From a virus (Duplodnaviria > Heunggongvirae > Uroviricota > Caudoviricetes), in IMG/VR virus record IMGVR_UViG_3300045988_148039: a stretch of 49,193 nucleotides of DNA; one strand, given 5' to 3'. The notes under the pieces were generated by a model. That model worked only from the letters and a program-made list of their open reading frames with translations. It searched no databases and was not told the origin of the DNA. Position 1 is the first letter of the stretch. Each line of letters opens with the position of its first letter. Positions 1 through 33,813 of this stretch are shown here, piece by piece. The position numbers and the translations under genes are program-made.

Positions 1-77
1 TAATTTTGAAAACCTTGATGCTTCAAAAGTTATTCCATTGAGCGAAAGCATCCCTTCCTTTATGGAAGCAGATAGCC
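1..77. repeat. Terminal direct duplication: 1..77 is identical to 49117..49193 (circular-closure overlap)
   Basis: Exact 77-nt identity of the two window ends read directly; implies a circular molecule of 49116 bp. Confidence 0.9.
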
Positions 78-4294: not shown

Positions 4295-4855
4295 TTATTC
4301 TTCCTGCTTAATAAATCGGGATTCCTGGAGCGCCTGAAGCGCAAAATTAATCTCGTCTTCAATAATGCGTTCGATCTCCCTGGCTGTTTTGCCTTCACAA
4401 CGGGGAGCTGCTCTTGGAGCAATACTAAATAAGCGGCTACGCAATTCATTAGCTGCCAGAAATGCATCATCCCTGACCGCATCTTTAGCGATGAGAGAGC
4501 CTTCCTTTTCTTCAAATTCAAGGCGTTTCAGCTTTGCCTGATAAATTTTTTCTGCGGTCTTAGCCTTGTTGAATTGCACCGCAACACCGGAAGTACCACC
4601 AGCTAATCCGGCATCATCAGCGGGTAACTCTGGTTGTTCCGAAGATATCCCATGCCCTCTTTTTCCGTTTTCAGCAGATACCTCACGACCAACCTGTCGG
4701 CTCGCTTCATAAGCCGCACTAGCTTTATCAAAATCCAGCTTGCCGCTTTTCAGCACTGGAATACGACCGGAACGACAGAGCTTCGTAACCATTGCCGGAG
4801 AAATACCTTTCCGGCGGGCAAACTCTGACTTACTAACGATGGCCATTACTTGCAA
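4295..4855 (-). CDS. Terminase small subunit (Nu1-like, N-terminal HTH)
   Basis: 186-aa ORF immediately upstream of the large terminase; N-terminal HTH-like segment SKSEFARRKGISPAMVTKLCRSGRIP. Confidence 0.6.
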   Translation of the reverse strand: MQVMAIVSKSEFARRKGISPAMVTKLCRSGRIPVLKSGKLDFDKASAAYEASRQVGREVSAENGKRGHGISSEQPELPADDAGLAGGTSGVAVQFNKAKTAEKIYQAKLKRLEFEEKEGSLIAKDAVRDDAFLAANELRSRLFSIAPRAAPRCEGKTAREIERIIEDEINFALQALQESRFIKQEE

Positions 4856-5436
4856 CCATTAGCAAGATACTGAACAAATCCCTCATGCGTTTCATGCGCG
4901 TCGTGGTACTGACGATAAACATCCAGCAACAATGCAATTTCCATATCCGTCGCGGGAATACGTTCTTTATCAATAGCCAGGTACTTAATTTGAACAACAG
5001 GGGAAGAATTATCGTCTTCTTCCCGCGGCTGTTCATCGCTTAACATTTCGTCAAGCTCTGCATCATTAAACCCAAGCAGATCAATATCAAAATCATCATC
5101 CATTAACTCTTTGACTTCTTCGGCCAGAAGCTGCATATCCCAACCAGCATTTAAGGCCAGCTTGTTATCTGCAATCCTGTAAGCCTTCTTCTGTTTTTCA
5201 GAAAGGTTACTCAACCGAATCGCCGGAACTTTATCCATTTCCAGAATTTCGGCTGCTGCAAGCCGACCATGCCCCGCAATCAGTTCATTCTTTTCATCGA
5301 TCAGCACAGGATTAGTGAAACCGAACTCACGGATACTGTTCACCAACTGTTCAACTTGCTCATCTGAATGAGTCCGTGAATTTTTGGCATATCTGAGCAG
5401 CTTACCGACTGGTAAATATTCGATTTTTAGAGCCAT
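4846..5436 (-). CDS. ParB-like nuclease domain protein (paralog 1)
   Basis: 196 aa; ParB N-terminal-domain-like region (...LIAGHGRLAAA...KKAYRIADNKLALNAGW...); overlaps the small terminase start. Confidence 0.65.
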   Translation of the reverse strand: MALKIEYLPVGKLLRYAKNSRTHSDEQVEQLVNSIREFGFTNPVLIDEKNELIAGHGRLAAAEILEMDKVPAIRLSNLSEKQKKAYRIADNKLALNAGWDMQLLAEEVKELMDDDFDIDLLGFNDAELDEMLSDEQPREEDDNSSPVVQIKYLAIDKERIPATDMEIALLLDVYRQYHDAHETHEGFVQYLANGCK

Positions 5437-5993
5437 TTTTTAACCGCCATAACACAACAGGTTAAAGAAAACTGTTTAACTTATTGATACTAAAAGAGAA
5501 AAATGACGATCTTTTTACTCATAAAAAATCACACAAACCAGCATAATTATCTGATTTTATTAAGTTTTTATAAGTAAAAAGGATCTTGCGATGGTGTTTT
5601 GGTTAAAAGATTGGATGTATTTACATGATTTATAACGATTTTTATCAAAACAACATCACATTGGTTAAAGATCTGCACGTATCTTGATGATCTAAAAGAA
5701 AATTTTCTACTTTCTTTTTACCAGCACAAATACAGCAAAAAATCACATTTTCCCGATATTTTTCAACGAGATGAGTAAATTTCTTTTACCGCAACTTTTA
5801 ACCTAACTTTTTTCACGTTTAGCTAGCCGAACATCGGGGTTCGAATGACCCGCATCCAACGCTTTTGGCCAGAAGGACCCAATTCTGCCGGACGATGAAA
5901 CGATGCTCGTGCTCCCCCACAGACAGCCAGCGAGCGACGCTACAGAACACAGTGAATACACTCTGCATAACAACACCATCAACCACACGATGA

Positions 5994-6729: not shown

Positions 6730-8109
6730 CTACTTAATCAACGGCCGGAAAGCCGCCAGCACATCATCAGATCGTCCGATTGTTGAACCACCAGGCAACG
6801 GCAACTCAAACTCAAAACGAACAGCTTTCTCCAGACTCGCCCAACTAAGGGAATCATCGTTAATGACGTGCAAATACCAGCTCTTACAGTTGAATATTGA
6901 CCGCTTAATCCTGAAACCATGTACACGACACAACTGCTTCACTTCATCATCAGAGTGAAACTTCTGGTAAAACCAGTGCCCCTTCCGGTACAACGCGGTA
7001 AAACCGTTATGATCAATAAAATAAAGCCGGCTTTTGGAACTCGCAGCTTGTGTTTGCTTCAGGACTGTTTCCAGCTCTCCACGGCTACGGCCAGAAAAGA
7101 ATATTGACCCACCAGCTTTACACAAGCCTTTCAGAACCGTCAGAACGGACCATTCAGCCTCGACACTATCGACCGAGTTCAAAACGCTATCGCAAATCAC
7201 GTAGTCGTAACGCCCTCGCGTTTTTAAGTCGTCCACCAGCGTATCAATCATCCGGTTTGTTGCGGTCCTATCCAGAGTGTTTCCAGCGCCCTTACGGCGG
7301 AAAAGCTCGAGATCATGCAGGTTATATCCCTTTGCCCTGAGCATTCGCGCGTAGTCTCCCTGCCCCGAACCAAAATCAATTCCTCTTGGCGTCTTGGCAA
7401 TGATCGGGAGGATCAACGACTCATACAGGTTTGATTTCAGGCTGCCACCATTACGCAACCGCATAAGCTGCGCATACGTCTGGATGTATGTTGTTTTCTC
7501 CAGATGAGAATACTCAAATACACCATAAGTTTTATTCAGATAACTTTGGTATTTTTCCTTCTCAACATCAGGGATCACAAACACCGTTAGCGGTGTGCGC
7601 GTCATCTTCGCTGCTAATGCATACTGAGCACAGTGAATAACCTCGCCAGACTGAGTCGCAACACAACCACCCCACGGACCATACTTGATAACCAGTTCCG
7701 CTATGTTCTTTCGAACATATGCCATTTTCGCGCGCATATTGCCTGAGATCTGGCTTGCCGATACCTGAACAAAACCATGCTTATCTTCCAGACCGGACAC
7801 CCTGCAACGCTCATCTCCGCTATCAAAATCCGTTCCGTTATGCAGTTGGTTAAACCGTACTTCGTCGTATACCGTCGTTTCACAGGGCAACACATACACC
7901 GCAGCACGCGTTATTCCCAACTTACGTAGCGCCTTCGTCCTTTGGTGTCCCGCCACCAGCAAATCGCCGCGCACTATCAATGGCTTCACAAGCCCCAGCT
8001 CCCTGACGCTTTCCGCCAGCCTCGCAAGATCATCTTCACCGATAAAACGCGGGTTATATTCCGCGCCGCGTAGGTGCGTTATGTCGTAATTGAGGTGAAG
8101 CATCAGCAC
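6730..8109 (-). CDS. ParB N-terminal domain fused to a SAM-dependent methyltransferase (probable DNA methyltransferase)
   Basis: 459 aa; N-terminal ParB-like region (LVAGHQRTKAL) and central motif-I-like IDFGSGQGDYARML; overlaps the upstream ParB-like gene by 7 nt. Confidence 0.65.
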   Translation of the reverse strand: MLMLHLNYDITHLRGAEYNPRFIGEDDLARLAESVRELGLVKPLIVRGDLLVAGHQRTKALRKLGITRAAVYVLPCETTVYDEVRFNQLHNGTDFDSGDERCRVSGLEDKHGFVQVSASQISGNMRAKMAYVRKNIAELVIKYGPWGGCVATQSGEVIHCAQYALAAKMTRTPLTVFVIPDVEKEKYQSYLNKTYGVFEYSHLEKTTYIQTYAQLMRLRNGGSLKSNLYESLILPIIAKTPRGIDFGSGQGDYARMLRAKGYNLHDLELFRRKGAGNTLDRTATNRMIDTLVDDLKTRGRYDYVICDSVLNSVDSVEAEWSVLTVLKGLCKAGGSIFFSGRSRGELETVLKQTQAASSKSRLYFIDHNGFTALYRKGHWFYQKFHSDDEVKQLCRVHGFRIKRSIFNCKSWYLHVINDDSLSWASLEKAVRFEFELPLPGGSTIGRSDDVLAAFRPLIK

Positions 8110-8726
8110 ACCTCCCCAGCCAGCAATGCGGATACAAATCCGATATAGCTGCCATTATCATCAACATAACGAGACACCGCGCAGTCAAAACGATCCGCTT
8201 CCTCATCCGTTGCCGGGATTTTATGACCTCCAAATGACAGGTACTGAACTTTTACGCCTGATTTGGCCTCATCCTTCTCAAATGGGATATCCATACCCTC
8301 TGTGTCATCGTAGACCGCCGCACTCAATAAGTTATCCAGTTCGCGCTGAGTAAAACCAATTGAGTCCAGAGCAAAATCATCGGCCGCAAGATCTGCAAGC
8401 TCCGCGCTTAACAACTCTTCATCCCAACCAGCATTCAGCGGAATACGGTTGTCGGCCAGACGATATGCCTTCTTCTGATTCTCCGTTAGCCCAGCCAGAA
8501 CAATGCAGGGAACATCATCCATCCCCAACTGAGTGGCCGCAGCAATTCGACCATGACCAGCAATTACAACGTTGTTCTCGTCTATCAGGATCGGATTAGT
8601 CCATCCGTACTCCTGTATGCTGGCAACAATCTGATCTACCTGCTCCACGGAGTGTGTGCGAGCGTTCTTTTCATAACCAATCAACACAGAAAGTGGTAAA
8701 GAAACCACATTAAGTTGTTTTGTCAT
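8103..8726 (-). CDS. ParB-like nuclease domain protein (paralog 2)
   Basis: 207 aa; alignable along its length with the 4846..5436 product (VEQ...IAGHGR...NQKKAYRLADNRIPLNAGW, IPATDEE). Confidence 0.65.
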   Translation of the reverse strand: MTKQLNVVSLPLSVLIGYEKNARTHSVEQVDQIVASIQEYGWTNPILIDENNVVIAGHGRIAAATQLGMDDVPCIVLAGLTENQKKAYRLADNRIPLNAGWDEELLSAELADLAADDFALDSIGFTQRELDNLLSAAVYDDTEGMDIPFEKDEAKSGVKVQYLSFGGHKIPATDEEADRFDCAVSRYVDDNGSYIGFVSALLAGEVC

Positions 8727-8960: not shown

Positions 8961-9674
8961 TTACTCTGGTATCAAACAGATGTGGCCGTTATTTACCTCA
9001 ATGCGAGAGTATCTCGGCTTACCATCCACGATTCCGGTAATGACAAGTTCGCCATCAGGCGACCATTCTTCTTTGTCGTCTTCAAGTACCGCGCCTTCTG
9101 GCAGATCAATACAAGCAAAAACAGGACAGCCAGGATGACGTTTATCCTCCATCGCAATCAGCATCGACTCACCGAACCACTCTGTAGTAGCACGGCCATC
9201 AGCCGCCTGATAGTGAATCAGATACTGGTTTTCGCCATTTGCATACTGAGCACGGGCTTGAACTTCTCCCCATTCGTCACTGATACGCATTGTTACCAGT
9301 TGGGATAATTCAAACTTAAACGGAACAGCCTCGGCACCAATAGATATCGGTGAGTTTTCTCGCTGCTCTGGACCTTCACGCTTCACAATTTGAACATCTT
9401 TGACGAGCCAATCACCTGTGTTATCTACTTTTCGATACTCATCGGTATCAGGTAACTCAATAACACTCATCCCATCCGGGCAAAGCAACGATACATCTTT
9501 CGAAACACTGCGGATAATGCCGTTATTGTCATACATCATCTTTAAAGTGTGAGGCTGAAATTTCTTCTGCTCCTCATACCAATTTCTTCCGTCTTCAGTA
9601 AAAAGCGGTAGCACATCTGGATGTTTGCCGCGGGGATCAATAAGCGGCACACTGATATTTTTTAAATGCATCAT
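8961..9674 (-). CDS. Tail-fiber-assembly-like protein (Tfa-type N-terminal domain, divergent C-terminal half)
   Basis: Starts MMHLKNI...NWYEEQKKFQP...LKMMYD like the two Tfa proteins in the invertible segment; C-terminal 130 aa unrelated to them. Confidence 0.5.
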   Translation of the reverse strand: MMHLKNISVPLIDPRGKHPDVLPLFTEDGRNWYEEQKKFQPHTLKMMYDNNGIIRSVSKDVSLLCPDGMSVIELPDTDEYRKVDNTGDWLVKDVQIVKREGPEQRENSPISIGAEAVPFKFELSQLVTMRISDEWGEVQARAQYANGENQYLIHYQAADGRATTEWFGESMLIAMEDKRHPGCPVFACIDLPEGAVLEDDKEEWSPDGELVITGIVDGKPRYSRIEVNNGHICLIPE

Positions 9675-9851
9675 ATAAATAACCCTACATCTATCTCATT
9701 GACTTGAATGAAACGCACCCTGACCGCAATTGCTCCCGCTTACGCCGAAAAGCTCTCTGCGCCACTAAGATGCGCCACAGGACACCAGCAATAACCACCA
9801 GCGAGATACAAAAACACACGGCCACAACCATCAGAAAAATGCCAACACCAT

Positions 9852-10058
9852 TCATGAAACTATCCATTCTTCAATGAATATCTCCAGTAATGTCAAGAGA
9901 TACGCCGTCCCCAGCGCGGTTCCTACCGATATAGCTAAGACAAACCTCAAAGATAACGAGGTGTCTTTCGCTTTTCTCCAGACGTAAGCGCCAGCCAGAA
10001 ATACCAACAAATCTCTTATTGGAAGCGGAAACCAGAACAAATCACTCGGCAAGTCCAC
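9852..10058 (-). CDS. Small hydrophobic protein
   Basis: 68-aa ORF with two hydrophobic stretches, co-oriented in the minus-strand operon. Confidence 0.3.
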   Translation of the reverse strand: MDLPSDLFWFPLPIRDLLVFLAGAYVWRKAKDTSLSLRFVLAISVGTALGTAYLLTLLEIFIEEWIVS

Positions 10059-10060
10059 GG

Positions 10061-10516
10061 TTATATCCTTCCATTCATTTTTATCGGATGACCAGATAGC
10101 CTTACGCAGTTGAGCTGTAAAGCTCCGGTATCAACTAAATAATCAACTAACATGATTAGAGATTCATATTCAGCCAGACAGCTAACCTGACGCATTCGAC
10201 CGCCGTTGTTCTCCAGAATGTCGGCCACCTTTGCAGCCAACTCGCTTAGACAGGAGAACTTATTCCCATATATCGTTTTATACTCGCGCTTCTGGCATTC
10301 TTCGGCTTGCGGCTGGTTATCGAGAGCTATCAGCGACCGATAACTATCAAGGAAGTCCACAATCTCATTCAGGCACTCTTTGGCTGCCTCATCGTGACTT
10401 TTTCCGTATGCTTCATGGAGGACTTTCATCCTCATAATTGCTCCGTCACACATAATCGAAAGCGCGTAAAGCACATCACTAATCGCCATTTCTTTTTTGG
10501 TGCTTGTCGAAGGCAT
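10061..10516 (-). CDS. Hypothetical protein
   Basis: 151-aa ORF packed tightly in the minus-strand operon. Confidence 0.45.
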   Translation of the reverse strand: MPSTSTKKEMAISDVLYALSIMCDGAIMRMKVLHEAYGKSHDEAAKECLNEIVDFLDSYRSLIALDNQPQAEECQKREYKTIYGNKFSCLSELAAKVADILENNGGRMRQVSCLAEYESLIMLVDYLVDTGALQLNCVRLSGHPIKMNGRI

Positions 10517-10590
10517 CCCATGTTCTCCTTTGTCTGGATGTAAAAAAGCCCCGGCAATTGCCGAGGCTCGTTGTTCGTTATCGTTACGGT

Positions 10591-10788
10591 TTAATGCTCG
10601 CGTCGTCCGGCGACAACTTCGGATTTGTATTTCAGGTCGCCCAGCAAGAATTGCAGTTTAAGCATCTTTGCCGCCGTGTAGTTCCCTGATTCCACAACCT
10701 CTTTCATGAGGTCATAAACGGCCGCTACATCATCAGCCAGGAACTCTTTGCGTTGCTGCTCAGTCGCACGTTTGAAGGAAATACGCAT
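10591..10788 (-). CDS. Hypothetical protein
   Basis: 65-aa ORF whose start overlaps the stop of the upstream gene by 1 nt. Confidence 0.35.
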   Translation of the reverse strand: MRISFKRATEQQRKEFLADDVAAVYDLMKEVVESGNYTAAKMLKLQFLLGDLKYKSEVVAGRREH

Positions 10789-11057
10789 TACTCATCATCT
10801 CCTGCTGCACATACAACCTCACAAAAAACATCAGCGGAATGTTTCTCCTTGAACGAATGACGCTCAAAACCGCACTCAATATCAGGCGCAAAAACATCCA
10901 CCACATACGGTCTTTCAGAATGTTTGTTTTCCCAACGATAAACCGTAGTGACGTTGAAATGTTTTAACGCTTCACGGAACTCAACGCTGCCCGTCAGGTT
11001 TTTTGAGGTCAGGTATTGCAGGAGGTTTTTTACTACTTCACGGTCTTGTACTTTCAT
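10788..11057 (-). CDS. Hypothetical protein (first gene behind repeat cassette A)
   Basis: 89-aa ORF; ATG preceded by GGAGA inside the conserved leader. Confidence 0.45.
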   Translation of the reverse strand: MKVQDREVVKNLLQYLTSKNLTGSVEFREALKHFNVTTVYRWENKHSERPYVVDVFAPDIECGFERHSFKEKHSADVFCEVVCAAGDDE

Positions 11058-11065
11058 CGGGTTAT

Positions 11066-11173
11066 CTCCGGTTTAACCAGGGCGGGTATCGCTCGGTTTC
11101 GGGTATAACCATAGGAAATTTTTTCCCACCTGTAAAGCACTTTTTATATAAATCTATAATTATATAATTCTAT
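11066..11173 (-). promoter_or_regulatory. Conserved promoter/leader cassette, copy A (AT-rich palindromic motif plus ~75-nt leader ending in the RBS)
   Basis: Near-identical to 18236..18345 and 27641..27750; contains TATAAATCTATAATTATATAA and ends ...CCGGAGA just before the ATG at 11057. Confidence 0.7.
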
Positions 11174-11757
11174 GACATTTGCCAGAGAGCATCATGCAAC
11201 TGGATACCTCCGTTGCACTGGTTGCCCCAGCCATGCCAGCCATCAGGTAAATCACCGCGAGCAAACAGCTCAATACGAGGAACATCGCCTAACAGCTTTA
11301 CCAGCTTGTCACGGACCACATCAGGCTTCCGAGAATGCTCCAGACGAGGCGATGTAAACGACTGAATGATCCCCGCATCAAGACGGGTCGGCAGTTTGCC
11401 TTTTACCGCAAACAAGCAGTCTTCACTGTTTGCACGAGTCATATGCCCCATCCCCATCACCAGCTTATCTGGTTGTCGGCTACCACATTTGTTCCATGTG
11501 AAGCCCTTCATGGTCATCAGCCTGAATCCCCATGCTTTCACCACCAGCAACGCTTCTTCTGGCTGAGTCGGAACCCACCACATGGCCAACAAACACGATT
11601 CAGGATTAGCAAGCTGCCAGACAGGAATACGAGCAATCTCCTCAGCTTTCATCGTTGGATACTTAAAACCAGCTCCACGATTCCCATCCTTACACTTGTC
11701 TTTGTATTCCCAGGGGGGATCTGCATAAATCAGATTAAACAATGCAATTTCCTCCAT
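11170..11757 (-). CDS. MT-A70-family N6-adenine DNA methyltransferase
   Basis: 195 aa with N-terminal catalytic DPPW motif (LIYADPPWEY). Confidence 0.75.
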   Translation of the reverse strand: MEEIALFNLIYADPPWEYKDKCKDGNRGAGFKYPTMKAEEIARIPVWQLANPESCLLAMWWVPTQPEEALLVVKAWGFRLMTMKGFTWNKCGSRQPDKLVMGMGHMTRANSEDCLFAVKGKLPTRLDAGIIQSFTSPRLEHSRKPDVVRDKLVKLLGDVPRIELFARGDLPDGWHGWGNQCNGGIQLHDALWQMS

Positions 11758-12065
11758 GTTAATTGTGCCTCCGGCGCTTATCTCCGGCAGTCATAACGCT
11801 GGCCAGCTCTACAGCAAACACAACGAAAAGGGCACTAACCAGACTGATTAATACCCTTGCCTGTTGTGTGCCGGATATCGCCCGACAACGCTGTTTTGGT
11901 AACACGGCTACAGTTCCGTGCCGCTCCAGCTTTTACCCCTTTGCGGATAACAGGCCCTGCCTGTACTCACTAACCAACGGCTTCCCGAAATGTGCACCAG
12001 GCACGCATAAAGATGAGCACGAAGAAGTAACTCCACCGCGCTTATCTTTATGTGTGAGGGTGAAT

Positions 12066-12141
12066 TGGTGGCCCCTACCGGATTTGAACCGATGACCGTG
12101 CGATTATGAGTCGCCTGCTCTAACCACTAAGCTAAGGGGCC
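12066..12141 (-). tRNA. tRNA, anticodon CAT (Met, or lysidine-modified minor Ile2 given resemblance to E. coli ileX as I recall it)
   Basis: Reverse complement folds as a cloverleaf: 7-bp acceptor stem GGCCCCT/AGGGGCC, T-arm with TTCAAAT loop, anticodon loop CTCATAA, encoded 3' CCA. Confidence 0.8.
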
Positions 12142-12270
12142 ATATTTGATTTGTTTGTCTGGTGTGGCGCCGCGCACGAAAATCCCAGCCAATAAATTCA
12201 GGATTTTTGGGCGCGGCGGCATATCAGACAAACATGGTTGATGCGTGCGCCCATGAGAAAAGCGCATAGA

Positions 12271-12310
12271 ATGTTGTAACTATATATTTATATAATTATA
12301 GAAATATATA
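12271..12310. promoter_or_regulatory. AT-rich palindromic motif copy (TTATATAATTATAGAAAT) just downstream of the lysis genes
   Basis: Same motif family as in cassettes A-C, read directly. Confidence 0.4.
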
Positions 12311-12520
12311 TTACTTTCGGCAGTTGATTTCCCATGCCCTGTTATGAGCCAGAATATCTTTCTTTGTCTGGCGGTCCATAACATCGATGTCGTGATCAGT
12401 CAGGTAGATGGGCTTTACCCAATCACAGGCGGTATCAACCACCACCGGGACGCTTCCACGACTCCCGCAGCTCGCGATCAACATCGTCATCAGCCATATG
12501 GTTAACACTCTGCTGTACAT
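12311..12520 (-). CDS. o-spanin (Rz1-like outer-membrane lipoprotein)
   Basis: 69 aa with lipobox-like LIASC after a hydrophobic N-terminus; overlaps the 3' end of the i-spanin gene in another frame. Confidence 0.55.
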   Translation of the reverse strand: MYSRVLTIWLMTMLIASCGSRGSVPVVVDTACDWVKPIYLTDHDIDVMDRQTKKDILAHNRAWEINCRK

Positions 12521-12713
12521 TACCCACCTCTTTTGTCACTTCTATACGCCGCTCCGCAGTGGCTTTTACGGCGGCTGCATTCTCATTAATGCGCTGCTTT
12601 TCAGCTTCATCTTCGGCCTTTTCTCGCCCTTTCATACGACCAAAACCAAACGCGCCGAATGCAACCAATATAATTGTGCCAATAAATGACAACACGGCCT
12701 TCAAACCAGTCAT
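12435..12713 (-). CDS. i-spanin (Rz-like)
   Basis: 92 aa: N-terminal transmembrane segment then charged helical region; directly downstream of the endolysin. Confidence 0.55.
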   Translation of the reverse strand: MTGLKAVLSFIGTIILVAFGAFGFGRMKGREKAEDEAEKQRINENAAAVKATAERRIEVTKEVGNVQQSVNHMADDDVDRELRESWKRPGGG

Positions 12714-13252
12714 ACCACCACTCGCTCTTTCATCCAGCCGTAGACAAACGACTCATTAGCCTCGCGCTTCTCCGCCAACTCCAGATAGCGTTCGCCCTGC
12801 GTACAGTTCAGCGACGTCAGCATCACCCGTTCGCCGTCTTTTCCCCGATTCCCAAGATAAGCACGCAGCGCATTAATGGTACGTGGACCGATTCGTCCGT
12901 CTGCATCCAAATCGGGATACAGCTTCCCGCGCAGGTTGAACACATTCAGCCAGCGTTGAAGCATTTTTGACGCCACTGTTGGCCCCATGTTCACCCCCGT
13001 GTCACACAGCTCTGCGGCAATATCAGAGGATAATGCGGCCACCTGATCAAAGCGTGGTCCGTACCAGTAATCAGCCTCAAGGATTTCCAGTGCCTGTTCG
13101 CGGGTTAAATCGCGCATATCGCCACGGTATCCATGAGCACGGGCAGTGTTCTGAGTAATGCCCCACTTTGTTGGGCCTCCCTTGTCGTCAGGGTGATCCA
13201 CATAGCCGCCCTCTTTTCCAAGAACGCTGTTAAAAATCTCATCTTTGGTCAT
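12710..13252 (-). CDS. Endolysin (glycoside hydrolase family 108-like with peptidoglycan-binding domain)
   Basis: 180 aa with N-terminal EGGYVDHPDDKGGPTKWGIT motif; sits between holin-like and spanin genes. Confidence 0.8.
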   Translation of the reverse strand: MTKDEIFNSVLGKEGGYVDHPDDKGGPTKWGITQNTARAHGYRGDMRDLTREQALEILEADYWYGPRFDQVAALSSDIAAELCDTGVNMGPTVASKMLQRWLNVFNLRGKLYPDLDADGRIGPRTINALRAYLGNRGKDGERVMLTSLNCTQGERYLELAEKREANESFVYGWMKERVVV

Positions 13253-13535
13253 GATTAAACCCTAATGCGTCAACTATCCGCGCCAGATTGCCCCTGAAAT
13301 ACAGAACAACGATGCAGATAATCAGATTTCCAATAACCACCAGCCAGTGGGATTCTTGATAAAGACCGAACACATAACGGAAGGGAACATTGGCGTATAC
13401 AATGACGTAGATATAAGCCAGAAAGGAAACAAATGGACGATGCCTGGAGTCTTTCCGTCGATAAAGCATCAGCGCCATTACTATTACTGTGCAAAGCACC
13501 GCATTAATCAGTGCTGACGGGTCACTGCTTACCAT
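13239..13535 (-). CDS. Holin-like membrane protein (second membrane protein of the lysis cassette)
   Basis: Internal ATG at 13535 preceded by GGAGGGGG; three predicted hydrophobic helices. Confidence 0.45.
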   Translation of the reverse strand: MVSSDPSALINAVLCTVIVMALMLYRRKDSRHRPFVSFLAYIYVIVYANVPFRYVFGLYQESHWLVVIGNLIICIVVLYFRGNLARIVDALGFNHDQR

Positions 13536-13917
13536 TTGAACCCCCTCCACGTAAGCGGGAAAGCATTCCAAAGATGCTACCGAGATCCTGGCTGTTTACG
13601 AACGTGAGGATTTTAATGGTCAATGCAGCCACAATAACCGCACCAAGCGCATCCAGAGGACGATCGTTGTAGCTGGTCCATTTGGCAAGAAATGAGCCAA
13701 CTAACGGCGCTCCAATCACTCCAACAATGAACGATGTAAAGAAATAGCCAATCAGCTTGAGACGGCTAATATTCACCGCTGTAGCAACATAGAAAACAGC
13801 GCCAGCAAATGCCCCGAATACAACGCCGTAATCAATACCAGTTGCAATACCAAAAACACTGGCACCCATCAGGCCACCAGCAGCAACGGCCGTACCGGAA
13901 ATTGGTTCTGCTGACAT
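13522..13917 (-). CDS. Putative holin
   Basis: Start chosen at internal ATG 13917 with GAGGA RBS; Gly/Ala-rich multi-helix membrane protein upstream of the endolysin. Confidence 0.5.
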   Translation of the reverse strand: MSAEPISGTAVAAGGLMGASVFGIATGIDYGVVFGAFAGAVFYVATAVNISRLKLIGYFFTSFIVGVIGAPLVGSFLAKWTSYNDRPLDALGAVIVAALTIKILTFVNSQDLGSIFGMLSRLRGGGSNGKQ

Positions 13918-14106
13918 TGAAATCCTCGTTAAAAAAAAGCCCCGCCGAAAAGGCAGGGCTTCATAAAGCAACAAATTACGCGGTAATCGCTTAACGCAGT
14001 TTTACTACGTTAAATGAAACACTACACCCAGTTACCACCTAAAACAAGGTTTCTCCATAAAAAAAACCTTCAAAACGTGGTTAATCGATCAATAAAAAAA
14101 CAATAC

Positions 14107-14385: not shown

Positions 14386-14886
14386 TTATCCCTTCCCATC
14401 TTTGACTGTGCGATCAGCTTTTTCGCGTTTATGGCTCTCATAAAACCATCGGTGAAGCTCCATTAGCTCTTTATCAATAGGCTCATATTCACGGTCAAAA
14501 TATGCCTGAGCATCTTTTTCATCTTCACTCGGTAACTCACCAGGACCAAACAAAGTGTTATAAATCCACATCAGTGCATTTTCTGCATTACCAGTTTCTC
14601 TCCATTCAATAATGGCAGCGCGCATAACCAGGAGGTTTTTGCCAAAGAACAGATCGAGTTCTTTAAATCGCTTACGAATATATTCGTTTTCGCCTTCAAG
14701 AGCTGCGATGCGCTTATCTTTGCCTTCCTGCTCGTCCAGTAGTGCCAGCATAGCCTCTGGAGTTGCTAAATCCTGCCAGTTATCTGACGTGTCGCTTGCA
14801 GTTCGCAGCATAATTTCTTCTTCTGCTGCCTCACGTAGCGCCAGTGTGTCGATGTTGCTCATTGTGCCTCCTCGATTTCGTCCCAT
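14386..14886 (-). CDS. Ead/Ea22-like protein (paralog)
   Basis: Shares N-terminal ALREAAE...LLALLDE with 15089..15616; assignment to the lambdoid ea22-like family is from memory. Confidence 0.45.
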   Translation of the reverse strand: MGRNRGGTMSNIDTLALREAAEEEIMLRTASDTSDNWQDLATPEAMLALLDEQEGKDKRIAALEGENEYIRKRFKELDLFFGKNLLVMRAAIIEWRETGNAENALMWIYNTLFGPGELPSEDEKDAQAYFDREYEPIDKELMELHRWFYESHKREKADRTVKDGKG

Positions 14887-16806: not shown

Positions 16807-17105
16807 GCCACAGCCCCTCTCAACGGCTTAACTTTGGCTAATAAGGTGTTAAACAACATGGAGTTAGGATTCATGCCAAATGGCAATTCCGGTTTAGCGG
16901 AGTAGTACAGGCAACCATTTATTTTCCTGGTTGTTATCTGTCCTTCGGCAACCATGCTTCTCAGTCTGCAACGCATAGAGTTCTGCGACACACCAATGTG
17001 CTCCGCGATTACGTCCACTTTTGAACATGGGTGATCGGTCAGGAAATTAATCACATCTTGGGGGTTAATAATTTTGCGTTTCATTGTCGAGGCGTCCTTA
17101 TACAT
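16803..17105 (-). CDS. Putative winged-helix DNA-binding protein
   Basis: 100-aa ORF with HTH-like middle segment; AT-rich motif copy directly upstream. Confidence 0.45.
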   Translation of the reverse strand: MYKDASTMKRKIINPQDVINFLTDHPCSKVDVIAEHIGVSQNSMRCRLRSMVAEGQITTRKINGCLYYSAKPELPFGMNPNSMLFNTLLAKVKPLRGAVA

Positions 17106-17150
17106 TTATATAAATATATAATTCTATATACGGCGGGAGACATCCCGCCG
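17101..17150. promoter_or_regulatory. AT-rich motif copy plus GC hairpin (CGGCGGGA-gaca-TCCCGCCG)
   Basis: Read directly; lies between the stop of 17162..18229 and the start of 16803..17105. Confidence 0.4.
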
Positions 17151-17161: not shown

Positions 17162-18229
17162 TCAGGCTTTCAATAGCGATTCTTTCAGATATCGGGCATC
17201 AGCCAGGGCGTTTGGAGTAATCTTGCGAACCCATGCATTACGGGTTGGACTCCACTTAAAGGCGCGTGATTTAAGCAGCGAACGAATGTTTGCCTCTGGT
17301 TTGCCAGGGAAATAAAACAGGATGCGGTTATCCTCTGGATCTATCTCCATAGAAAAGCCGTCGTATTCTTCGCGCTGTGCTCCTGTTACAGACTTGACCG
17401 ATTCAAGCTCTTTAATACGGCTCTGTAGTCGTTTGATTTCGGCGTTATTGTTACTCAGTGAGTATGAAGGAAAGCCAATGTGCCCACAGAAATCTCCGGC
17501 CAGTAACTCTTTGGCTTCGCTTTCTGTAAACCTGAGATCGATTAATGCAGAAAGCTGCTGTAATTGGTCTTTTTTGTATTTGCGAATGACCTTATTTGCG
17601 GCCTTCATTTTGATGTGTGACTTCATGCAGCCTTGCAGCTTACGAAGCAACTTAAATAGCGCATCAGGATCATCAGACGAAACTCCATTACGGCCGACAC
17701 CTGCGGCTTTGCTCTCGTAGTGTGATGCTTTACTTTCGCATTCAACAAACGCTTTTCTGAATAACGCATCAGCTTTAGACAAACGGCGGCGATGGCCTTT
17801 CGCGCTATAATGGTCAACTAAAATCGGCTGGCCTAACGGGATCACATCCAACAGGTCATGCGCTCGCTTATGCGCCACCGCACCTTCTTTTCTGGCTTTT
17901 TCTGCACAAGCAATATATCGGGCAAGACGCGCGTTCTGGCGTTCCTGATAGGTATTTACGTAATCATCTCCGCGCTGCTGCTGTTCAAGCCATGCTTTGC
18001 GCAGCTTTTCTGTTACGTCTACCAACTCCGCAGGGATACAACCTGTTTGGGATTCATAAGAGTGACCATCCTCATAAAGACGTCCATCGTCTTCAACAAA
18101 GAAAAAGGTTTCGTGCTCATCGCTTTTGACCATACGGCCATTAACATGACGTAATCTATAGCCAGTATCAGTGCTTAACAGGCTGTTAGGGTTGTTGATC
18201 CAGTCAGAAATAATTACTTGTTTATTCAT
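17162..18229 (-). CDS. Hypothetical protein (first gene behind repeat cassette B)
   Basis: Start taken at internal ATG 18229 (MNKQVII...) preceded by GGAGA of the conserved leader; the longer ORF to 18283 would run into the leader. Confidence 0.5.
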   Translation of the reverse strand: MNKQVIISDWINNPNSLLSTDTGYRLRHVNGRMVKSDEHETFFFVEDDGRLYEDGHSYESQTGCIPAELVDVTEKLRKAWLEQQQRGDDYVNTYQERQNARLARYIACAEKARKEGAVAHKRAHDLLDVIPLGQPILVDHYSAKGHRRRLSKADALFRKAFVECESKASHYESKAAGVGRNGVSSDDPDALFKLLRKLQGCMKSHIKMKAANKVIRKYKKDQLQQLSALIDLRFTESEAKELLAGDFCGHIGFPSYSLSNNNAEIKRLQSRIKELESVKSVTGAQREEYDGFSMEIDPEDNRILFYFPGKPEANIRSLLKSRAFKWSPTRNAWVRKITPNALADARYLKESLLKA

Positions 18230-18235
18230 CAGATT

Positions 18236-18345
18236 TCTCCGGTTTAACCAGGGCGGGTATCGCTCGGTTTCGGGTATAACCATAGGAAATTTTTTCCCAC
18301 CTGTAAAGCACTTTTTTATATAAATCTATAATTATATATTTATAG
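18236..18345 (-). promoter_or_regulatory. Conserved promoter/leader cassette, copy B
   Basis: Near-identical to copies A and C; its AT-rich part extends into a longer near-palindrome ATCTATAATTATATATTTATAGAT. Confidence 0.7.
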
Positions 18346-18400
18346 ATTTTCCGATGTTCCCGATGTCTACAAATCACTAAAACAGCTCAAAATGACACTT

Positions 18401-20925: not shown

Positions 20926-21582
20926 ATGAAAAGCAACGACGAGAACATCAAGAAAGAAATAGGTCTGCGCATTCAGACTCTACGGAAACAATCCGGCATG
21001 ACTGCCGGAGATCTCCAGCAAGTCACTGGAATAGGCTTAAGCACCTTGCAGAACTATGAGGCCGGATTAAGACAACCATCTATACCTGCCATCAAGAAAA
21101 TCGCGCACGCCCTGAAAGCATCAGCGCCTTATATCGCGTGCTTAACAGATAACCCGTTCCTACCCCAGAATACTAACGCTCCTGTTATTCCTGGGCTTGT
21201 AGCTATAAAAAATGACATAGCATCGCACGCCGGAGAAAAGCCAGTGCTGGCGATAGAACAGGAGATTCTACGAAGCAAGAACATCAACCCATCGTCTCTG
21301 TCAGTTCTCCAGAGCAACGATGAGTTAATGTCACCAACAATATCCCCTGGCTCCCAAGTCCTGATTAATACAGACGATACAGAGATTCATGAGGGGATCT
21401 ATGCCCTTGAAGACAGAAATGGCCTGGTTGTTTTGAGGCACTGTAGAGTCATACCGGGTGACAATGCTGTTATGCTGTCAACCGAAAGGGATGCTGAAAT
21501 GAACACTAAGCATCTGAATAACGAGGAATTTAAGCGTTATAAAGTTCTTGGCCGCGTAGTTAGTGTTGTCAACTGGTTATGA
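20926..21582 (+). CDS. cI-like repressor (N-terminal XRE HTH, C-terminal LexA/S24-like autocleavage domain)
   Basis: 218 aa; HTH segment GMTAGDLQQVTGIGLSTLQNYEAG; S24-like C-terminal region with candidate Ser (ELMSPT) and Lys (KRYKVLGRV). Confidence 0.75.
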   Translation: MKSNDENIKKEIGLRIQTLRKQSGMTAGDLQQVTGIGLSTLQNYEAGLRQPSIPAIKKIAHALKASAPYIACLTDNPFLPQNTNAPVIPGLVAIKNDIASHAGEKPVLAIEQEILRSKNINPSSLSVLQSNDELMSPTISPGSQVLINTDDTEIHEGIYALEDRNGLVVLRHCRVIPGDNAVMLSTERDAEMNTKHLNNEEFKRYKVLGRVVSVVNWL

Positions 21583-22049: not shown

Positions 22050-22075
22050 CTGAAAGCGGGCTAACGCCCGCTTAT

Positions 22076-22180
22076 ATGATTATAGATTTATATAATTATA
22101 TAAAACGCTTTTCATCCGCCAAAAAGTTGGTTATGCTTACCTCGTTCTATAAATATAGATTTATAGAATTATATAACCAA
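22076..22180. promoter_or_regulatory. Two AT-rich palindromic motif copies upstream of the ParA-type gene (candidate centromere/operator)
   Basis: TTATAGATTTATATAATTATATAA and TCTATAAATATAGATTTATAGAATTATATAA read directly. Confidence 0.5.
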
Positions 22181-22184
22181 ACAC

Positions 22185-22853
22185 ATGGAGTCTCGACAAA
22201 TGACTATCTCTGTAGGTATTTTCAACGGAAAAGGCGGCGTAACCAAATCAACAATTGCCCGTGCTTTAGCAGTTGCTTATGCAAAGGCCGGCTGGAATGT
22301 ATGCCTGATCGATATGGATGTGCTTAACGGAACGGTAACGCGTTGGGTACAACGCAGAATGGCCAACAATATCGAACCTGCAATCGCGGCGCAGCCGTGC
22401 GGCACGCCATCACAAGTCCAGAAAATCATCGAATCAGAAGTATACGACCTGGTTATCGTCGATGGCGGTGCCTACGCATCTGAATCAGTACCGAAGCTCT
22501 CTGAATTTCTGGATATGGTTATTTTGCCAACCAGATTCTCTACCGATGACCTGGAAACCACCGTTAACACAGCTCATGGCATCGTTAAAAAGGGTGTGCC
22601 AATCAAGAAAATTTGCATGGTGTTCTCAGGCGCGGCTGAAAACGAAGCCGACTACATTGAAGCCCAAGAGTACCTGGCTAATACGCCATACTTTGTTGTC
22701 GATAAGTACATTCCCCACAAGCCAGCTCTGAGCAAAGCTCAGGATAAGGGCTTAAGCCTCATTGAATGCTCATACGTTGCGCCACGCAAAAAGGCAGACG
22801 ACGTTATTCAGGGGATTATCAACCAGCTTGAGGCTCTGACTACTGCCGCGTAA
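22185..22853 (+). CDS. ParA/ParF-type partition ATPase
   Basis: 222 aa with deviant Walker A NGKGGVTKST. Confidence 0.75.
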   Translation: MESRQMTISVGIFNGKGGVTKSTIARALAVAYAKAGWNVCLIDMDVLNGTVTRWVQRRMANNIEPAIAAQPCGTPSQVQKIIESEVYDLVIVDGGAYASESVPKLSEFLDMVILPTRFSTDDLETTVNTAHGIVKKGVPIKKICMVFSGAAENEADYIEAQEYLANTPYFVVDKYIPHKPALSKAQDKGLSLIECSYVAPRKKADDVIQGIINQLEALTTAA

Positions 22854-22854
22854 T

Positions 22855-22893
22855 ATATAATTATAGTTTTATAGATTTATATAAGAGGGGATA
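22855..22893. promoter_or_regulatory. AT-rich palindromic motif copy between the ParA-type and RHH genes
   Basis: TAATATATAATTATAGTTTTATAGATTTATATAA read directly. Confidence 0.45.
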
Positions 22894-26866: not shown

Positions 26867-26916
26867 TTGTCTTTCTGGCGCTTACATTACACCACCATAA
26901 AACGATCCGTAAAGGA

Positions 26917-27189
26917 TCATTTGATCCCTTGTTCCAATTCTGACGACACTTTAACCTTTTCCCATACAAGGGTTTGCAGCCTTAACAGAATCGCATCTTT
27001 ATCAAGGTGTGAAAGATCCTTAACCATATCGTCAAACGACAGAACGCGAATGGCCATCTCAATGACCCTCGGCGGCTCCCCCTTCTCATATCGCTTATAT
27101 GTAGCCAACGATATCCCAAATTCTTCGGCGGCTCGCTCCTGCGTCCAGTTCATCCCACGACGCCATAATTTCAATTCATAACCCGTCAT
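26917..27189 (-). CDS. XRE-family HTH regulator
   Basis: Start at ATG 27189 with GGAGG RBS; HTH segment WTQERAAEEFGISLATYKRYEKGE. Confidence 0.55.
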   Translation of the reverse strand: MTGYELKLWRRGMNWTQERAAEEFGISLATYKRYEKGEPPRVIEMAIRVLSFDDMVKDLSHLDKDAILLRLQTLVWEKVKVSSELEQGIK

Positions 27190-27252: not shown

Positions 27253-27633
27253 TTACTTAACGAGGAATAAAAATGGTTTATTGTTAGGCGGTGTAATCGG
27301 GGCTGGCTCGCTTTTGCTCATGCGATCAGTGTACCAGGCCAGCTCCTTGTCAAAGTAAGCCTGATTAAAATAGGCCATGAATGTAGTTTCAAATCCATAA
27401 CGACCGCTAATACGCAGCATCTGATTGCCGTTCTCTGTTTCCAGATATACCTGGGCACGTTCCTGATTCTCCTTCAGCCAGGTTAAAGCCTCGTCGCACG
27501 AGGACACACGATACTCATCATCGTAGCCGTCATCGATGCGGCTTGAAGAAGAACGGCAAATCACGCCAACAGAACCAGCCAGGATAGTTTGAATTTTAAG
27601 GAAAGCGTTTTTGCGGATTTTGATCATGCTCAT
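27253..27633 (-). CDS. Hypothetical protein (first gene behind repeat cassette C)
   Basis: 126-aa ORF; ATG preceded by GGAGA of the conserved leader. Confidence 0.45.
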   Translation of the reverse strand: MSMIKIRKNAFLKIQTILAGSVGVICRSSSSRIDDGYDDEYRVSSCDEALTWLKENQERAQVYLETENGNQMLRISGRYGFETTFMAYFNQAYFDKELAWYTDRMSKSEPAPITPPNNKPFLFLVK

Positions 27634-27640
27634 CGGGTTT

Positions 27641-27750
27641 TCTCCGGTTTAACCAGGGCGACTATCGCTCGGTTTCGGGTATAACCTTAGGAAATTTTTT
27701 CCCACCTGTAAAGCAGTTTTTATATAAATCTATAATTATATAATTCTATG
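27641..27750 (-). promoter_or_regulatory. Conserved promoter/leader cassette, copy C
   Basis: Differs from copy A at a handful of positions over about 105 bp; read directly. Confidence 0.7.
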
Positions 27751-27796
27751 AGCACAAAAAAGCCCCTTTGCAACAGGGGCTTATCATTCGTTCTGA

Positions 27797-31622: not shown

Positions 31623-31693
31623 ACTTTCTAAACCGCGATTGTTGCTAAAAGCGGGAAAAAATATCGTTCAGACGACACAGAGGCAATTCGCAA

Positions 31694-31720
31694 AAACCTC
31701 GGTTTACAGGAAACGGTAAA
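31694..31720. repeat. Invertase crossover site, left copy (AAACCTCGGTTTACAGGAAACGGTAAA)
   Basis: Inverted copy of 34751..34775 with one mismatch in the shared core; encodes ...LGLQETVN... in both fiber reading frames. Confidence 0.8.
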
Positions 31721-32720: not shown

Positions 32721-32721
32721 T

Positions 32722-33811: not shown

Positions 33812-33813
33812 AA

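What the first reader, a model, noticed from the sequence alone, without database searches (positions are those of the whole stretch)
11170..11757. Orphan MT-A70-type adenine methyltransferase in addition to the ParB-methyltransferase
Two DNA methyltransferase genes of different families are present and neither has an adjacent restriction endonuclease candidate. This fits self-protection against host restriction or epigenetic regulation; the GATC cluster near repA is a possible target.
Basis: inference. Interest (0 to 1): 0.4.

Follow-up and report, generated by a model that had tools for sequence, protein, structure and literature searches.

The report
Orphan MT-A70 methyltransferase of a phage-plasmid
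The ORF is a real, intact, stand-alone MT-A70-type adenine methyltransferase carried by a common E. coli phage-plasmid, most likely a phage copy of a Dam-like GATC methylase; it is already annotated as such in many public records, so the finding is correct but ordinary.

Summary
Window 11170-11757 (- strand) encodes a 195-aa protein that is a complete MT-A70 domain: Pfam PF05063 at 2.9e-23, DPPW catalytic motif, and a METTL3/MTA1-like predicted fold. The window is a complete circular phage-plasmid of about 49.1 kb, with an IncFII-type repA, parA and a P2-like myovirus module. It is 98% identical to many E. coli plasmids, including the 48.5-kb plasmid of ATCC 25922, and to Yersinia phages vB_YpM_39/41/44. 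In those plasmids the gene is already annotated "MT-A70 family methyltransferase".

No restriction endonuclease was found next to it, elsewhere in the element, or beside 33 orthologues in other genera, so "orphan" holds.

The closest studied relatives point to GATC. They are the Stx-phage enzyme M.EcoGV/M.EcoPA8orf6770P (73% identity) and PhiBZS1_p32-type enzymes. One report makes the Stx-phage enzyme a 16S rRNA methylase when bound to PNB-2, but PNB-2 is absent here.

Two parts of the finding fail:
- The "ParB-methyltransferase" is a ParB_N plus generic class I SAM methyltransferase with no DNA-methylase motif.
- The "GATC cluster near repA" is three sites, no more than chance gives.

One thing is unexplained: a leader of about 200 nt with a terminator, 94-97% conserved, directly upstream of the gene.

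The parts
11170..11757 (-). MT-A70 family N6-adenine methyltransferase gene (195 aa). The alternative start is TTG at 11742, giving 190 aa. DPPW (motif IV) is at residues 13-16, HSRKP at 141-145, ELFAR at 163-167 and WGNQ at 177-180.
   Evidence: family, motifs, fold. (dN/dS about 0.12 against the Salmonella orthologue). (intact in 69 E. coli plasmids).
11758..11964 (-). Conserved non-coding leader directly upstream of the methyltransferase gene. It is 94% (11865-11964) and 97% (11765-11827) identical to a Salmonella relative whose MT-A70 protein is only 75% identical and whose synonymous sites are near saturation. Its function is unknown.
   Evidence: alignment and identities; pS 0.68; no Rfam family; rydB at 28.9 bits is below the gathering score of 50; found only in this lineage.
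11828..11858 (-). Intrinsic-terminator-like hairpin plus T-tract inside the leader, about 70 nt before the start codon. The stem is kept by a different sequence in the Salmonella relative (GGGCA..TGCCC against AGAGCACAG..CTGTGCTCT, with a 36-nt larger loop).
12066..12141 (-). tRNA-Met (CAT) between the lysis cassette and the leader. It is present in the E. coli and Yersinia forms and absent from the Salmonella relative.
12272..12319 (.). AT-rich repeat block with 8-bp periodicity (one of eight loci in the element). It lies between the Rz/Rz1 genes and the tRNA-Met / leader / MT-A70 unit and may be an operator or promoter element.
11144..11175 (.). Second copy of the AT-rich repeat, starting just 3' of the MT-A70 stop and overlapping its last two codons. 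It is part of a 122-nt unit (11054-11175) repeated at 18225-18346 and 27630-27751 that also carries a sigma-70-like promoter (TTTACA-17-TATGGT) for the next leftward operon. It marks the 3' boundary of the MT-A70 unit.
6730..8109 (-). It is not shown to be a DNA methylase and is listed only as context.
   Evidence: (phrog_5475, unknown function).

Best explanation
The gene encodes a functional, stand-alone beta-class (MT-A70) SAM-dependent N6-adenine methyltransferase of a temperate P2-like myovirus that is maintained as an IncFII-type plasmid.

Most likely it is a Dam-like enzyme that methylates the adenine of GATC in the element's own DNA. It sits in the slot between the lysis cassette and the packaging/head genes, all transcribed leftward. 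It is preceded by a terminator-containing leader.

I infer that it is silent or low in the plasmid state and is expressed with the lytic genes. It would then top up GATC methylation on rapidly replicating phage DNA before packaging, so that virion DNA enters the next cell fully methylated.

- Shown: gene, family, intact catalytic motifs, fold, purifying selection, absence of a partner endonuclease, conserved position.
- Inferred: DNA as substrate, GATC as target, timing of expression, biological benefit.
For: Family and integrity:
- Pfam MT-A70 over the full model.
- The best PDB sequence matches are the Tetrahymena DNA 6mA methylase MTA1 and METTL3, with DPPW, SxKP, ELFAR and GNQ/E aligned.
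- The AlphaFold model (pLDDT 84.5) matches METTL3 and MTA1 at TM about 0.7.

Selection and conservation:
- dN/dS is about 0.12 against a Salmonella orthologue of 75% identity.
- The gene is full-length at 97-99% identity in 69 plasmids among 5426 complete E. coli genomes.
- The order lysis - MT-A70 - ParB genes - terminase is the same in the diverged Salmonella relative.

Orphan status:
- There is no REase model hit among 67 ORFs.
- PGAP annotates no endonuclease on a 98.5% identical plasmid.
- The 33 orthologues in other genera share no conserved neighbour except typical prophage genes: replication protein, RusA, integrase, PerC.

Specificity by bracketing:
- The protein is 73% identical, with the same architecture, to the Stx-phage enzyme.
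- That enzyme's near-identical homologue M.EcoGV methylates GATC in vivo when cloned (Fang 2012 as cited in PMC10810198; REBASE-based table in PMC6602927).
- It is 43% identical to the HK639 enzyme, which is 75% identical to the experimentally GATC-specific PhiBZS1_p32. That enzyme in turn is 41% identical to the GATC-specific M.EfaBMDam of Tn1549 (PMC7556043).
- E. coli ATCC 25922 carries a 97.6% identical copy. Its methylome shows only GATC, CCWGG, RTACNNNNGTG and GGTCTC/GAGACC, all matched to REBASE records for that strain (PMC12679398). So there is no extra motif that this enzyme would have to explain.
Against: - No experiment exists on this orthologue, and 73% identity does not guarantee the same target.
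- In vitro, the Stx-phage homologue alone had only weak activity on DNA, including unmethylated GATC DNA, and preferred 16S rRNA when complexed with PNB-2 (PMC10810198).
- As I recall (not checked here), the element's usual hosts are Dam+, so a second GATC methylase has no obvious necessity. The authors of PMC7556043 themselves state that the role of phage Dam-like enzymes is not understood.
- GATC is depleted (observed/expected 0.62) and not significantly clustered, so no specific target site is evident.
- The ATCC 25922 methylome is equally explained by a silent gene.
- Timing of expression is inferred from position and a predicted terminator only.
Confidence: 0.55

Rival explanations
1. It is a DNA N6-adenine methyltransferase whose target is not GATC. 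The target could be another short motif or a relaxed specificity, which would give broader protection of virion DNA against restriction in new hosts.
For: The protein is a bare 195-aa catalytic core without a recognisable target-recognition domain. The GATC-proven BZS1/HK639 type carries a 23-aa insertion that this protein lacks. Phage methylases with relaxed specificity are documented, although in other families: M.EcoGII (PMC5778455) and Hia5/Hin1523 (PMC3299994).
Against: The closest studied relative of the same architecture, M.EcoGV, gave GATC (PMC10810198, PMC6602927). The ATCC 25922 methylome shows no additional m6A motif (PMC12679398), although the gene could be silent there. All three characterised bacterial MT-A70 enzymes are GATC-specific (PMC7556043).
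Confidence: 0.18
2. It is an RNA methyltransferase, like the Stx-phage M.EcoPA8orf6770P-PNB-2 holoenzyme reported to prefer 16S rRNA in 30S subunits. It would then tune host translation or induction rather than modify DNA.
For: It is 72.6% identical to the PA28/PA8 enzyme over the catalytic domain. Among solved structures, the nearest sequence relative is the Tetrahymena DNA 6mA methylase MTA1, but the RNA methylase METTL3 tops the structure-based search. The Stx-phage enzyme alone acts only weakly on DNA in vitro (PMC10810198).
Against: The specificity subunit PNB-2 (62 aa, encoded immediately upstream in PA28) has no homologue anywhere in the window (tblastn E>1) or beside 33 orthologues. 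The protein also lacks the longer C-terminal tail of the Stx-phage form. The authors link that tail to PNB-2 binding, and they note that short forms occur without PNB-2 (PMC10810198). The rRNA claim itself rests on SAM-consumption assays with no modified base identified (PMC10810198).
Confidence: 0.1
3. It is a silent or functionless passenger gene (moron remnant) with no role in the element's life cycle.
For: Prophage methylases of E. coli are often not expressed in lysogens: M.EcoGI/II (PMC5778455) and M.EcoMIV (PMC4659465). A terminator precedes the gene. No extra methylation motif is seen in ATCC 25922 (PMC12679398).
Against: dN/dS is about 0.12. All catalytic motifs are intact. The gene is full-length in every one of 69 E. 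coli plasmid copies and in three phage isolates. Its position is conserved in a relative with only 75% protein identity.
Confidence: 0.05
4. It is the modification half of an unrecognised restriction or defence system whose nuclease is one of the neighbouring unknown ORFs (89, 65, 151 or 237 aa).
For: The downstream ORFs 10788-11057, 10591-10788 and 10061-10516 have no Pfam match, and their PHROG families are of unknown function.
Against: These ORFs start a separate transcription unit with its own promoter repeat, and three of the four are under 160 aa. They hit no nuclease or PADLOC model. None is found next to any of the 33 orthologous methylase genes. In the Salmonella relative only two of them are weakly conserved (45-49% identity).
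Confidence: 0.03

Closest known systems
M.EcoGV / M.EcoPA8orf6770P (MT-A70 methylase next to the integrase of Stx2 phages such as PA8, PA28, P13771, TL-2011c)
   Same: 72.6-73.1% identity over residues 5-181. It has the same TRD-less single-domain architecture with no insertions, the same DPPW, HSRKP, ELFAR and WGNQC motifs, and is an orphan in a temperate phage.
   Different: The Stx-phage gene sits in the early-left region beside the integrase and is translationally coupled to the 62-aa partner PNB-2. The gene here sits between the lysis and packaging genes and has no PNB-2. Its C-terminal tail is about 19 aa shorter and unrelated, and it has a lineage-specific leader.
phiV10 / TL-2011b / epsilon15-like 'adenine methylase' (PhiV10p33)
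   Same: It is the closest phage relative outside the lineage, at 77% identity over residues 7-188.
   Different: In phiV10 it is preceded by an overlapping PerC-family gene and lies next to the integrase. No PerC homologue is in the window. Its specificity has not been determined, as far as I found.
PhiBZS1_p32 (Serratia phage BZS1) / HK639 gp35, and M.EfaBMDam of Tn1549
   Same: These are bacterial MT-A70 (beta-class) orphan methylases shown experimentally to methylate GATC (PMC7556043). The HK639 enzyme is 43% identical to the protein here.
   Different: They carry a 23-aa insertion after the FTW motif that is absent here, and they lie downstream of the integrase.
Phage Dam-like methylases of other families (P1 Dmt, T4/T2 Dam, VT2-Sa Dam, HP1 Dam)
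   Same: They are a functional analogy only: orphan GATC adenine methylases carried by phages of Dam+ hosts (listed in PMC7556043). From memory, P1 pac cleavage needs methylated GATC.
   Different: They belong to different protein families and motif orders (alpha class or PF05869). No P1-like array of GATC hexamers was found here. The densest GATC group near the packaging genes is 4 sites in 182 bp (5508-5689), and overall GATC clustering does not exceed chance.
METTL3-METTL14 and ciliate MTA1-MTA9 (eukaryotic MT-A70 enzymes)
   Same: Same fold and catalytic motifs.
   Different: The listed structures are METTL3-METTL14 heterodimers or MTA1-MTA9-p1-p2 complexes, that is, multi-subunit assemblies. 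They share 22-25% identity with the protein here, which has no detectable partner gene.

Membership tests
MT-A70 family (Pfam PF05063; beta-class amino-methyltransferases) | Significant full-length match to the family profile | tested here: met
   PF05063 at E=2.9e-23 and 83.1 bits (cut-off 23.9), profile positions 1-172 of 172. The family has 11,413 representative clusters at E<=1e-3.
MT-A70 family (Pfam PF05063; beta-class amino-methyltransferases) | Catalytic motif IV, DPPW, near the N-terminus (beta-class order), plus the C-terminal SxKP, ELF(A/G)R and GN(Q/E) motifs | tested here: met
   DPPW is at residues 13-16, HSRKP at 141-145, ELFAR at 163-167 and WGNQ at 177-180. They align to the same motifs of Tetrahymena MTA1 and are invariant or nearly so in 62 homologues.
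MT-A70 family (Pfam PF05063; beta-class amino-methyltransferases) | METTL3/MTA1-like Rossmann fold | tested here: met
   The model has pLDDT 84.5 and pTM 0.86. Foldseek top hits are METTL3 (E=1e-14, TM 0.70) and MTA1 (TM 0.70, rmsd 2.7).
MT-A70 family (Pfam PF05063; beta-class amino-methyltransferases) | SAM-dependent N6-adenine methylation activity | not testable with these tools
   This needs enzyme assays or a methylome.
Dam-like (GATC-specific) orphan methylases of the bacterial MT-A70 clade | Methylation of GATC | not testable with these tools
   This is inferred only by bracketing between M.EcoGV (73% identity) and PhiBZS1_p32/HK639 (43% identity) (PMC7556043, PMC6602927, PMC10810198). 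It is consistent with the ATCC 25922 methylome having no extra motif (PMC12679398).
Type II restriction-modification system | A cognate restriction endonuclease gene linked to the methylase | tested here: not met
   There is no REase model among 67 ORFs (PADLOC). No nuclease domain is found in the neighbours. None is annotated on a near-identical plasmid. There is no conserved nuclease neighbour in 33 orthologous loci.
M.EcoPA8orf6770P-PNB-2 16S rRNA methyltransferase holoenzyme | Presence of the PNB-2 specificity subunit encoded immediately upstream | tested here: not met
   tblastn of PA28 gp6 (PNB-2) and gp7 (PNB-1) against the window gives nothing below E=0.1. The upstream sequence is a non-coding leader.
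M.EcoPA8orf6770P-PNB-2 16S rRNA methyltransferase holoenzyme | Extended C-terminal tail of the STEC form (the last ~27 aa, linked by the authors to PNB-2 association) | tested here: not met
   The protein here ends 14 aa after WGNQC, against 33 aa in PA28, and the tails are unrelated.
DNA methyltransferase (any class), applied to the 'ParB-methyltransferase' 6730-8109 | An amino-methylase (D/N/S)PP(Y/F/W) or C5 PCQ catalytic motif, and a match to a DNA-methylase family | tested here: not met
   Only ParB_N and Methyltransf_23 match. The sequence has IDFGSGQGDY but no DPPY-type or PCQ motif. The PADLOC MTase_II model is matched only at its ParB part, positions 16-85 of 436. Fold neighbours are generic, small-molecule and tRNA class I methyltransferases.

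The most novel reading that the evidence does not exclude
Expression of the methyltransferase is gated by a previously undescribed cis-acting RNA. This would be the ~200-nt leader (11758-11964), which is 94-97% conserved between lineages whose neighbouring coding sequence has near-saturated synonymous divergence. It contains an intrinsic terminator whose stem is maintained by different sequences. The leader could be an attenuator, a target of processive antitermination, or a metabolite (for example SAM/SAH)-sensing element that couples methylase production to the lytic switch or to methyl-donor supply. Alternatively it could be an independent small RNA that ends at that terminator.
Probability: 0.15. 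Interest if true: 0.5.

Novelty: already known. Interest (0 to 1): 0.2.

Why it matters
The practical value is correct annotation. This phage-plasmid occurs in about 1.3% of complete E. coli genomes (69 plasmid copies among 5426 genomes), including the quality-control strain ATCC 25922, and it also circulates as infectious Yersinia/E. coli phage.

Three points follow from this work:
- It carries one bona fide orphan adenine methylase, probably Dam-like, and not two DNA methylases.
- Its closest studied relative is disputed between DNA GATC and 16S rRNA as substrate. That makes this partner-less orthologue a clean test case for what bacterial MT-A70 enzymes do on their own.
- The conserved leader and the ParB-fused class I methyltransferase beside the terminase are the less ordinary features nearby.

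Tried and rejected
- **Partner subunits.** I searched the window and 33 orthologous loci for PNB-2, PNB-1 and PerC. None is in the window, and PerC occurs in only 8 other loci.
- **Linked endonuclease.** I used Pfam, PHROGs, NCBIfam and PADLOC on the neighbours and on all 67 ORFs, and I clustered the neighbours of the orthologues. Nothing was found.
- **GATC clusters as methylase targets.** Clustering is not above chance. There is no P1-pac-like hexamer array in the intergenic region upstream of the terminase operon.
- **Identity of the conserved leader.** Rfam gave no family. Searches of phages, plasmids, GTDB genomes, IMG/VR and metagenomes returned only near-identical copies plus one Salmonella type. 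That is too little variation for a covariation test, so I built no covariance model.
- **A conserved small ORF in the leader.** This is rejected because frame and stop are not conserved.
- **Antiterminator upstream of the lysis genes.** I looked for a Q-like protein and found only Ead/Ea22-like and unknown proteins.
- **Fang et al. 2012 (PMC3879109).** The paper could not be read. The M.EcoGV specificity is therefore cited second-hand.
- **Literature on this lineage.** Searches for a description of vB_YpM_41 or a named phage-plasmid group found nothing.

Full report
**The element.** The first 77 bases of the window are identical to the last 77. It is therefore a complete circular molecule of about 49.1 kb with an assembly overlap. 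It carries:
- an IncFII-type repA (29906-30886, -), a parA (22185-22853, +) and a cI-like HTH/S24 repressor (20926-21582, +);
- a HigB-like toxin gene (28096-28449);
- a serine invertase (31068-31622) beside inverted tail-fibre segments;
- lysis genes (12311-13974);
- TerS and TerL, and P2-like head and contractile-tail genes.

A 5-kb stretch around the finding (9000-14000) is 98.5% identical to E. coli plasmids such as NZ_CP023368 p48. It is 96-98% identical to Yersinia phages vB_YpM_39/41/44, isolated on Y. pestis EV76. So this is a phage-plasmid that also circulates as virions.

**The observation.** An ORF of 195 aa occupies exactly 11170-11757 on the - strand.
- It matches Pfam MT-A70 over the entire model (E=2.9e-23), phrog_359 'DNA methyltransferase' (3e-102) and a PADLOC Type II methylase model (7.7e-69).
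- The nearest solved proteins by sequence are the Tetrahymena DNA 6mA methylase MTA1 (4e-13) and METTL3 (3e-6). DPPW, SxKP, ELFAR and GNQ/E align.
- An AlphaFold model (pLDDT 84.5) superposes on METTL3 and MTA1 at TM about 0.7.
- These motifs are invariant or nearly so in 62 homologues.
- The start codon is ambiguous: ATG at 11757 or TTG at 11742. The Salmonella orthologue and the vB_YpM_41 annotation use the equivalent of the second, which has a GGAGG 8 nt upstream.

**Is it maintained?**
- Against an orthologue on a 47.5-kb Salmonella contig (75% protein identity), pN=0.19 and pS=0.68, so dN/dS is about 0.12.
- The gene is full-length at 97-99% identity in 69 plasmids among 5426 complete E. 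coli genomes, including the 48,488-bp plasmid of ATCC 25922.
- In the Salmonella relative the gene order is the same: lysis cassette, MT-A70, small ORFs, ParB_N, ParB_N-methyltransferase, 238-aa protein, ParB_N, TerS, TerL. The endolysin family there differs.
- PGAP already calls the gene 'MT-A70 family methyltransferase' in these records.

**Is it orphan?**
- Pfam, PHROGs and NCBIfam find no nuclease in the neighbouring ORFs.
- A PADLOC scan of 67 ORFs covering the element returns no restriction-endonuclease model.
- The 33 orthologues (63-83% identity) fetched from other genera lie in varied prophage contexts. The only recurrent neighbours are a replication protein, RusA, an integrase and PerC.
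- The gene therefore behaves as a self-sufficient single-gene cassette.

**What does it methylate?** No experiment exists for this orthologue, but three studied relatives bracket it.
- *Stx2 phages.* PA28, P13771 and TL-2011c encode a protein 72.6-73.1% identical with the same architecture. Gong et al. (PMC10810198) study it as M.EcoPA8orf6770P and state that the highly similar M.EcoGV methylates GATC in vivo when overproduced (Fang 2012). A REBASE-based table lists M.EcoGV as GATC (PMC6602927).
- *HK639 and BZS1.* The HK639 enzyme is 43% identical to the protein here and 75% identical to PhiBZS1_p32. That enzyme was shown by MboI/DpnI assays in a dam- host to methylate GATC (PMC7556043).
- *Tn1549.* M.EfaBMDam is 41% identical to PhiBZS1_p32 and is also GATC-specific (PMC7556043).
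- *ATCC 25922.* This strain carries the element. Its reported methylation motifs (GATC, CCWGG, RTACNNNNGTG, GGTCTC/GAGACC) are all matched to REBASE records for that strain (PMC12679398). That fits either GATC specificity or silence in the plasmid state.

**The complication.** Gong et al. report that the Stx-phage enzyme alone is weakly active on DNA. They also report that, bound 1:1 to the 62-aa PNB-2 encoded immediately upstream, it prefers 16S rRNA in 30S subunits.
- I extracted PNB-2 and PNB-1 from PA28. Neither has a homologue in the window or beside the 33 orthologues.
- The protein here also lacks the longer C-terminal tail of the STEC form.
- The same paper notes that short forms occur without PNB-2.
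- I therefore rank the RNA reading as a minority rival (about 0.1).

**How it is probably used.** The gene lies in the long leftward transcription direction between Rz/Rz1 and the packaging genes, a classic moron slot. The unit is bounded by two copies of an AT-rich repeat with 8-bp periodicity (12272-12319 and 11144-11175).
- This repeat occurs at eight loci. The 25-mer has 5 matches at up to 3 mismatches against 0 expected.
- At three loci it is part of a 122-nt unit with a sigma-70-like promoter.
- Within the bounded unit lie a long hairpin (12152-12234), tRNA-Met (12066-12141), a conserved leader and the gene.

From the position and the terminator I infer low expression in the plasmid state and read-through during lytic growth. 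The enzyme would then methylate progeny DNA faster than host Dam can. This is inference, and the authors of PMC7556043 note that the role of phage Dam-like enzymes remains unclear.

**The leader.** Between the E. coli and Salmonella forms:
- positions 11865-11964 are 94% identical and 11765-11827 are 97% identical;
- the MT-A70 region aligns at about 75% nucleotide identity with near-saturated synonymous sites;
- the sequence upstream of 11964 is unalignable.

Only the apical part of one hairpin differs (54% identity). There the stem is rebuilt from a different sequence with a 36-nt larger loop, followed in both forms by TTTTCGTTGTG. That is a terminator-like element about 70 nt before the start codon.

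No ORF is conserved in the leader. Rfam gives only a sub-threshold rydB match (28.9 bits against 50). The segment was found only in this lineage, with too little variation to test covariation. It remains unexplained.

- *The 'ParB-methyltransferase' (6730-8109).* It is a ParB_N domain fused to a class I SAM methyltransferase (Methyltransf_23), in phrog_5475 of unknown function. It has no amino-methylase or C5 motif. It matches a PADLOC methylase model only through the ParB part. Its confident model (pLDDT 94.7) resembles generic, small-molecule and tRNA methyltransferases. The family is widespread at 45-99% identity, from enterobacteria to Bradyrhizobium, and sources name it only generically. 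Its substrate is unknown.
- *The GATC cluster near repA.* This is three sites 100-140 bp upstream of repA. Triplets within 45 bp occur 3 times against 0.9 expected (P=0.07), and the tightest triplet lies at 26904-26923 (P=0.14). GATC as a whole is depleted: 134 sites against 185-217 expected, observed/expected 0.62.

**Verdict.** The core observation is correct, and the annotation is already public for near-identical sequences. The kind is known: an orphan phage MT-A70 methylase, probably Dam-like. Interest is low (0.2). The leader and the ParB-fused class I methyltransferase are the features nearby that would repay further work.

Noticed in passing
window 11144-11175, 12272-12319, 17090-17129, 18316-18347, 22072-22103, 22145-22184, 22853-22892, 27720-27751: A dispersed AT-rich repeat with 8-bp periodicity (TTATATAA/TTATAGAT...). 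The 25-mer ATTATATAATTATAGATTTATATAA has 5 matches at up to 3 mismatches against 0 expected. Three copies sit in a 122-nt unit (11054-11175, 18225-18346, 27630-27751; 76-96% identity) with a sigma-70-like promoter at the head of leftward operons. Others flank parA. It looks like a shared operator set for one global regulator (KorB/ParG-like?) that links partition and phage operons.
   Followed up: partly
window 11758-11964 (- strand): A non-coding leader upstream of the MT-A70 gene is 94-97% identical to a Salmonella relative whose flanking coding DNA is about 75% identical. It contains a terminator hairpin whose stem is kept by a different sequence. It matches no Rfam family and occurs only in this lineage.
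   Followed up: partly
window 4846-5436, 6730-8109, 8103-8726 (all - strand): Three ParB_N-domain proteins sit just upstream of TerS/TerL. One (459 aa) is fused to a class I SAM methyltransferase of unknown substrate (phrog_5475). That family is conserved at 45-99% identity from enterobacteria to Bradyrhizobium and Hyphomicrobium. The arrangement is kept in the Salmonella relative. This may be a packaging-associated function.
   Followed up: partly
window 12152-12234: A long, nearly perfect inverted repeat (34-nt arms, 85% complementary, 15-nt loop) lies just upstream of tRNA-Met. The surrounding block 12153-12310 aligns at 78% identity with the Salmonella relative even though the tRNA is absent there.
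   Followed up: no
window 1-77 and 49117-49193: There is an exact 77-nt terminal duplication. The window is a circular contig with an assembly overlap, so the element is about 49,116 bp.
   Followed up: yes
window 31068-34778: This is an invertible tail-fibre region. It has a serine invertase (31068-31622, Resolvase+HTH_7; annotated 'hin' in vB_YpM_41). It has 55-nt inverted repeats at 31693-31747 and 34724-34778. It also has oppositely oriented tail-fibre assembly genes (32722-33249 + and 33278-33811 -) with 271-nt inverted arms. This suggests host-range switching as in Mu or P1.
   Followed up: no
window 14386-14886 (- strand): A 166-aa Ead/Ea22-like protein just upstream of the lysis genes matches the PADLOC DpdH model (1e-41, residues 54-160). 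The meaning is unknown.
   Followed up: no
whole window: GATC is depleted (134 sites; observed/expected 0.62 by a Markov estimate). It is second only to CTAG (0.40) and close to GTAC (0.64) among 4-bp palindromes. GATC-free stretches reach 2.7 kb (32340-35047).
   Followed up: partly
window 5437-5993: A 557-bp AT-rich intergenic region lies upstream of the ParB-TerS-TerL operon and holds 4 GATC sites in 182 bp (5508-5689). The circular vB_YpM_41 record is opened within it, 414 nt upstream of that ParB gene. It is a candidate packaging-site or late-promoter region.
   Followed up: partly
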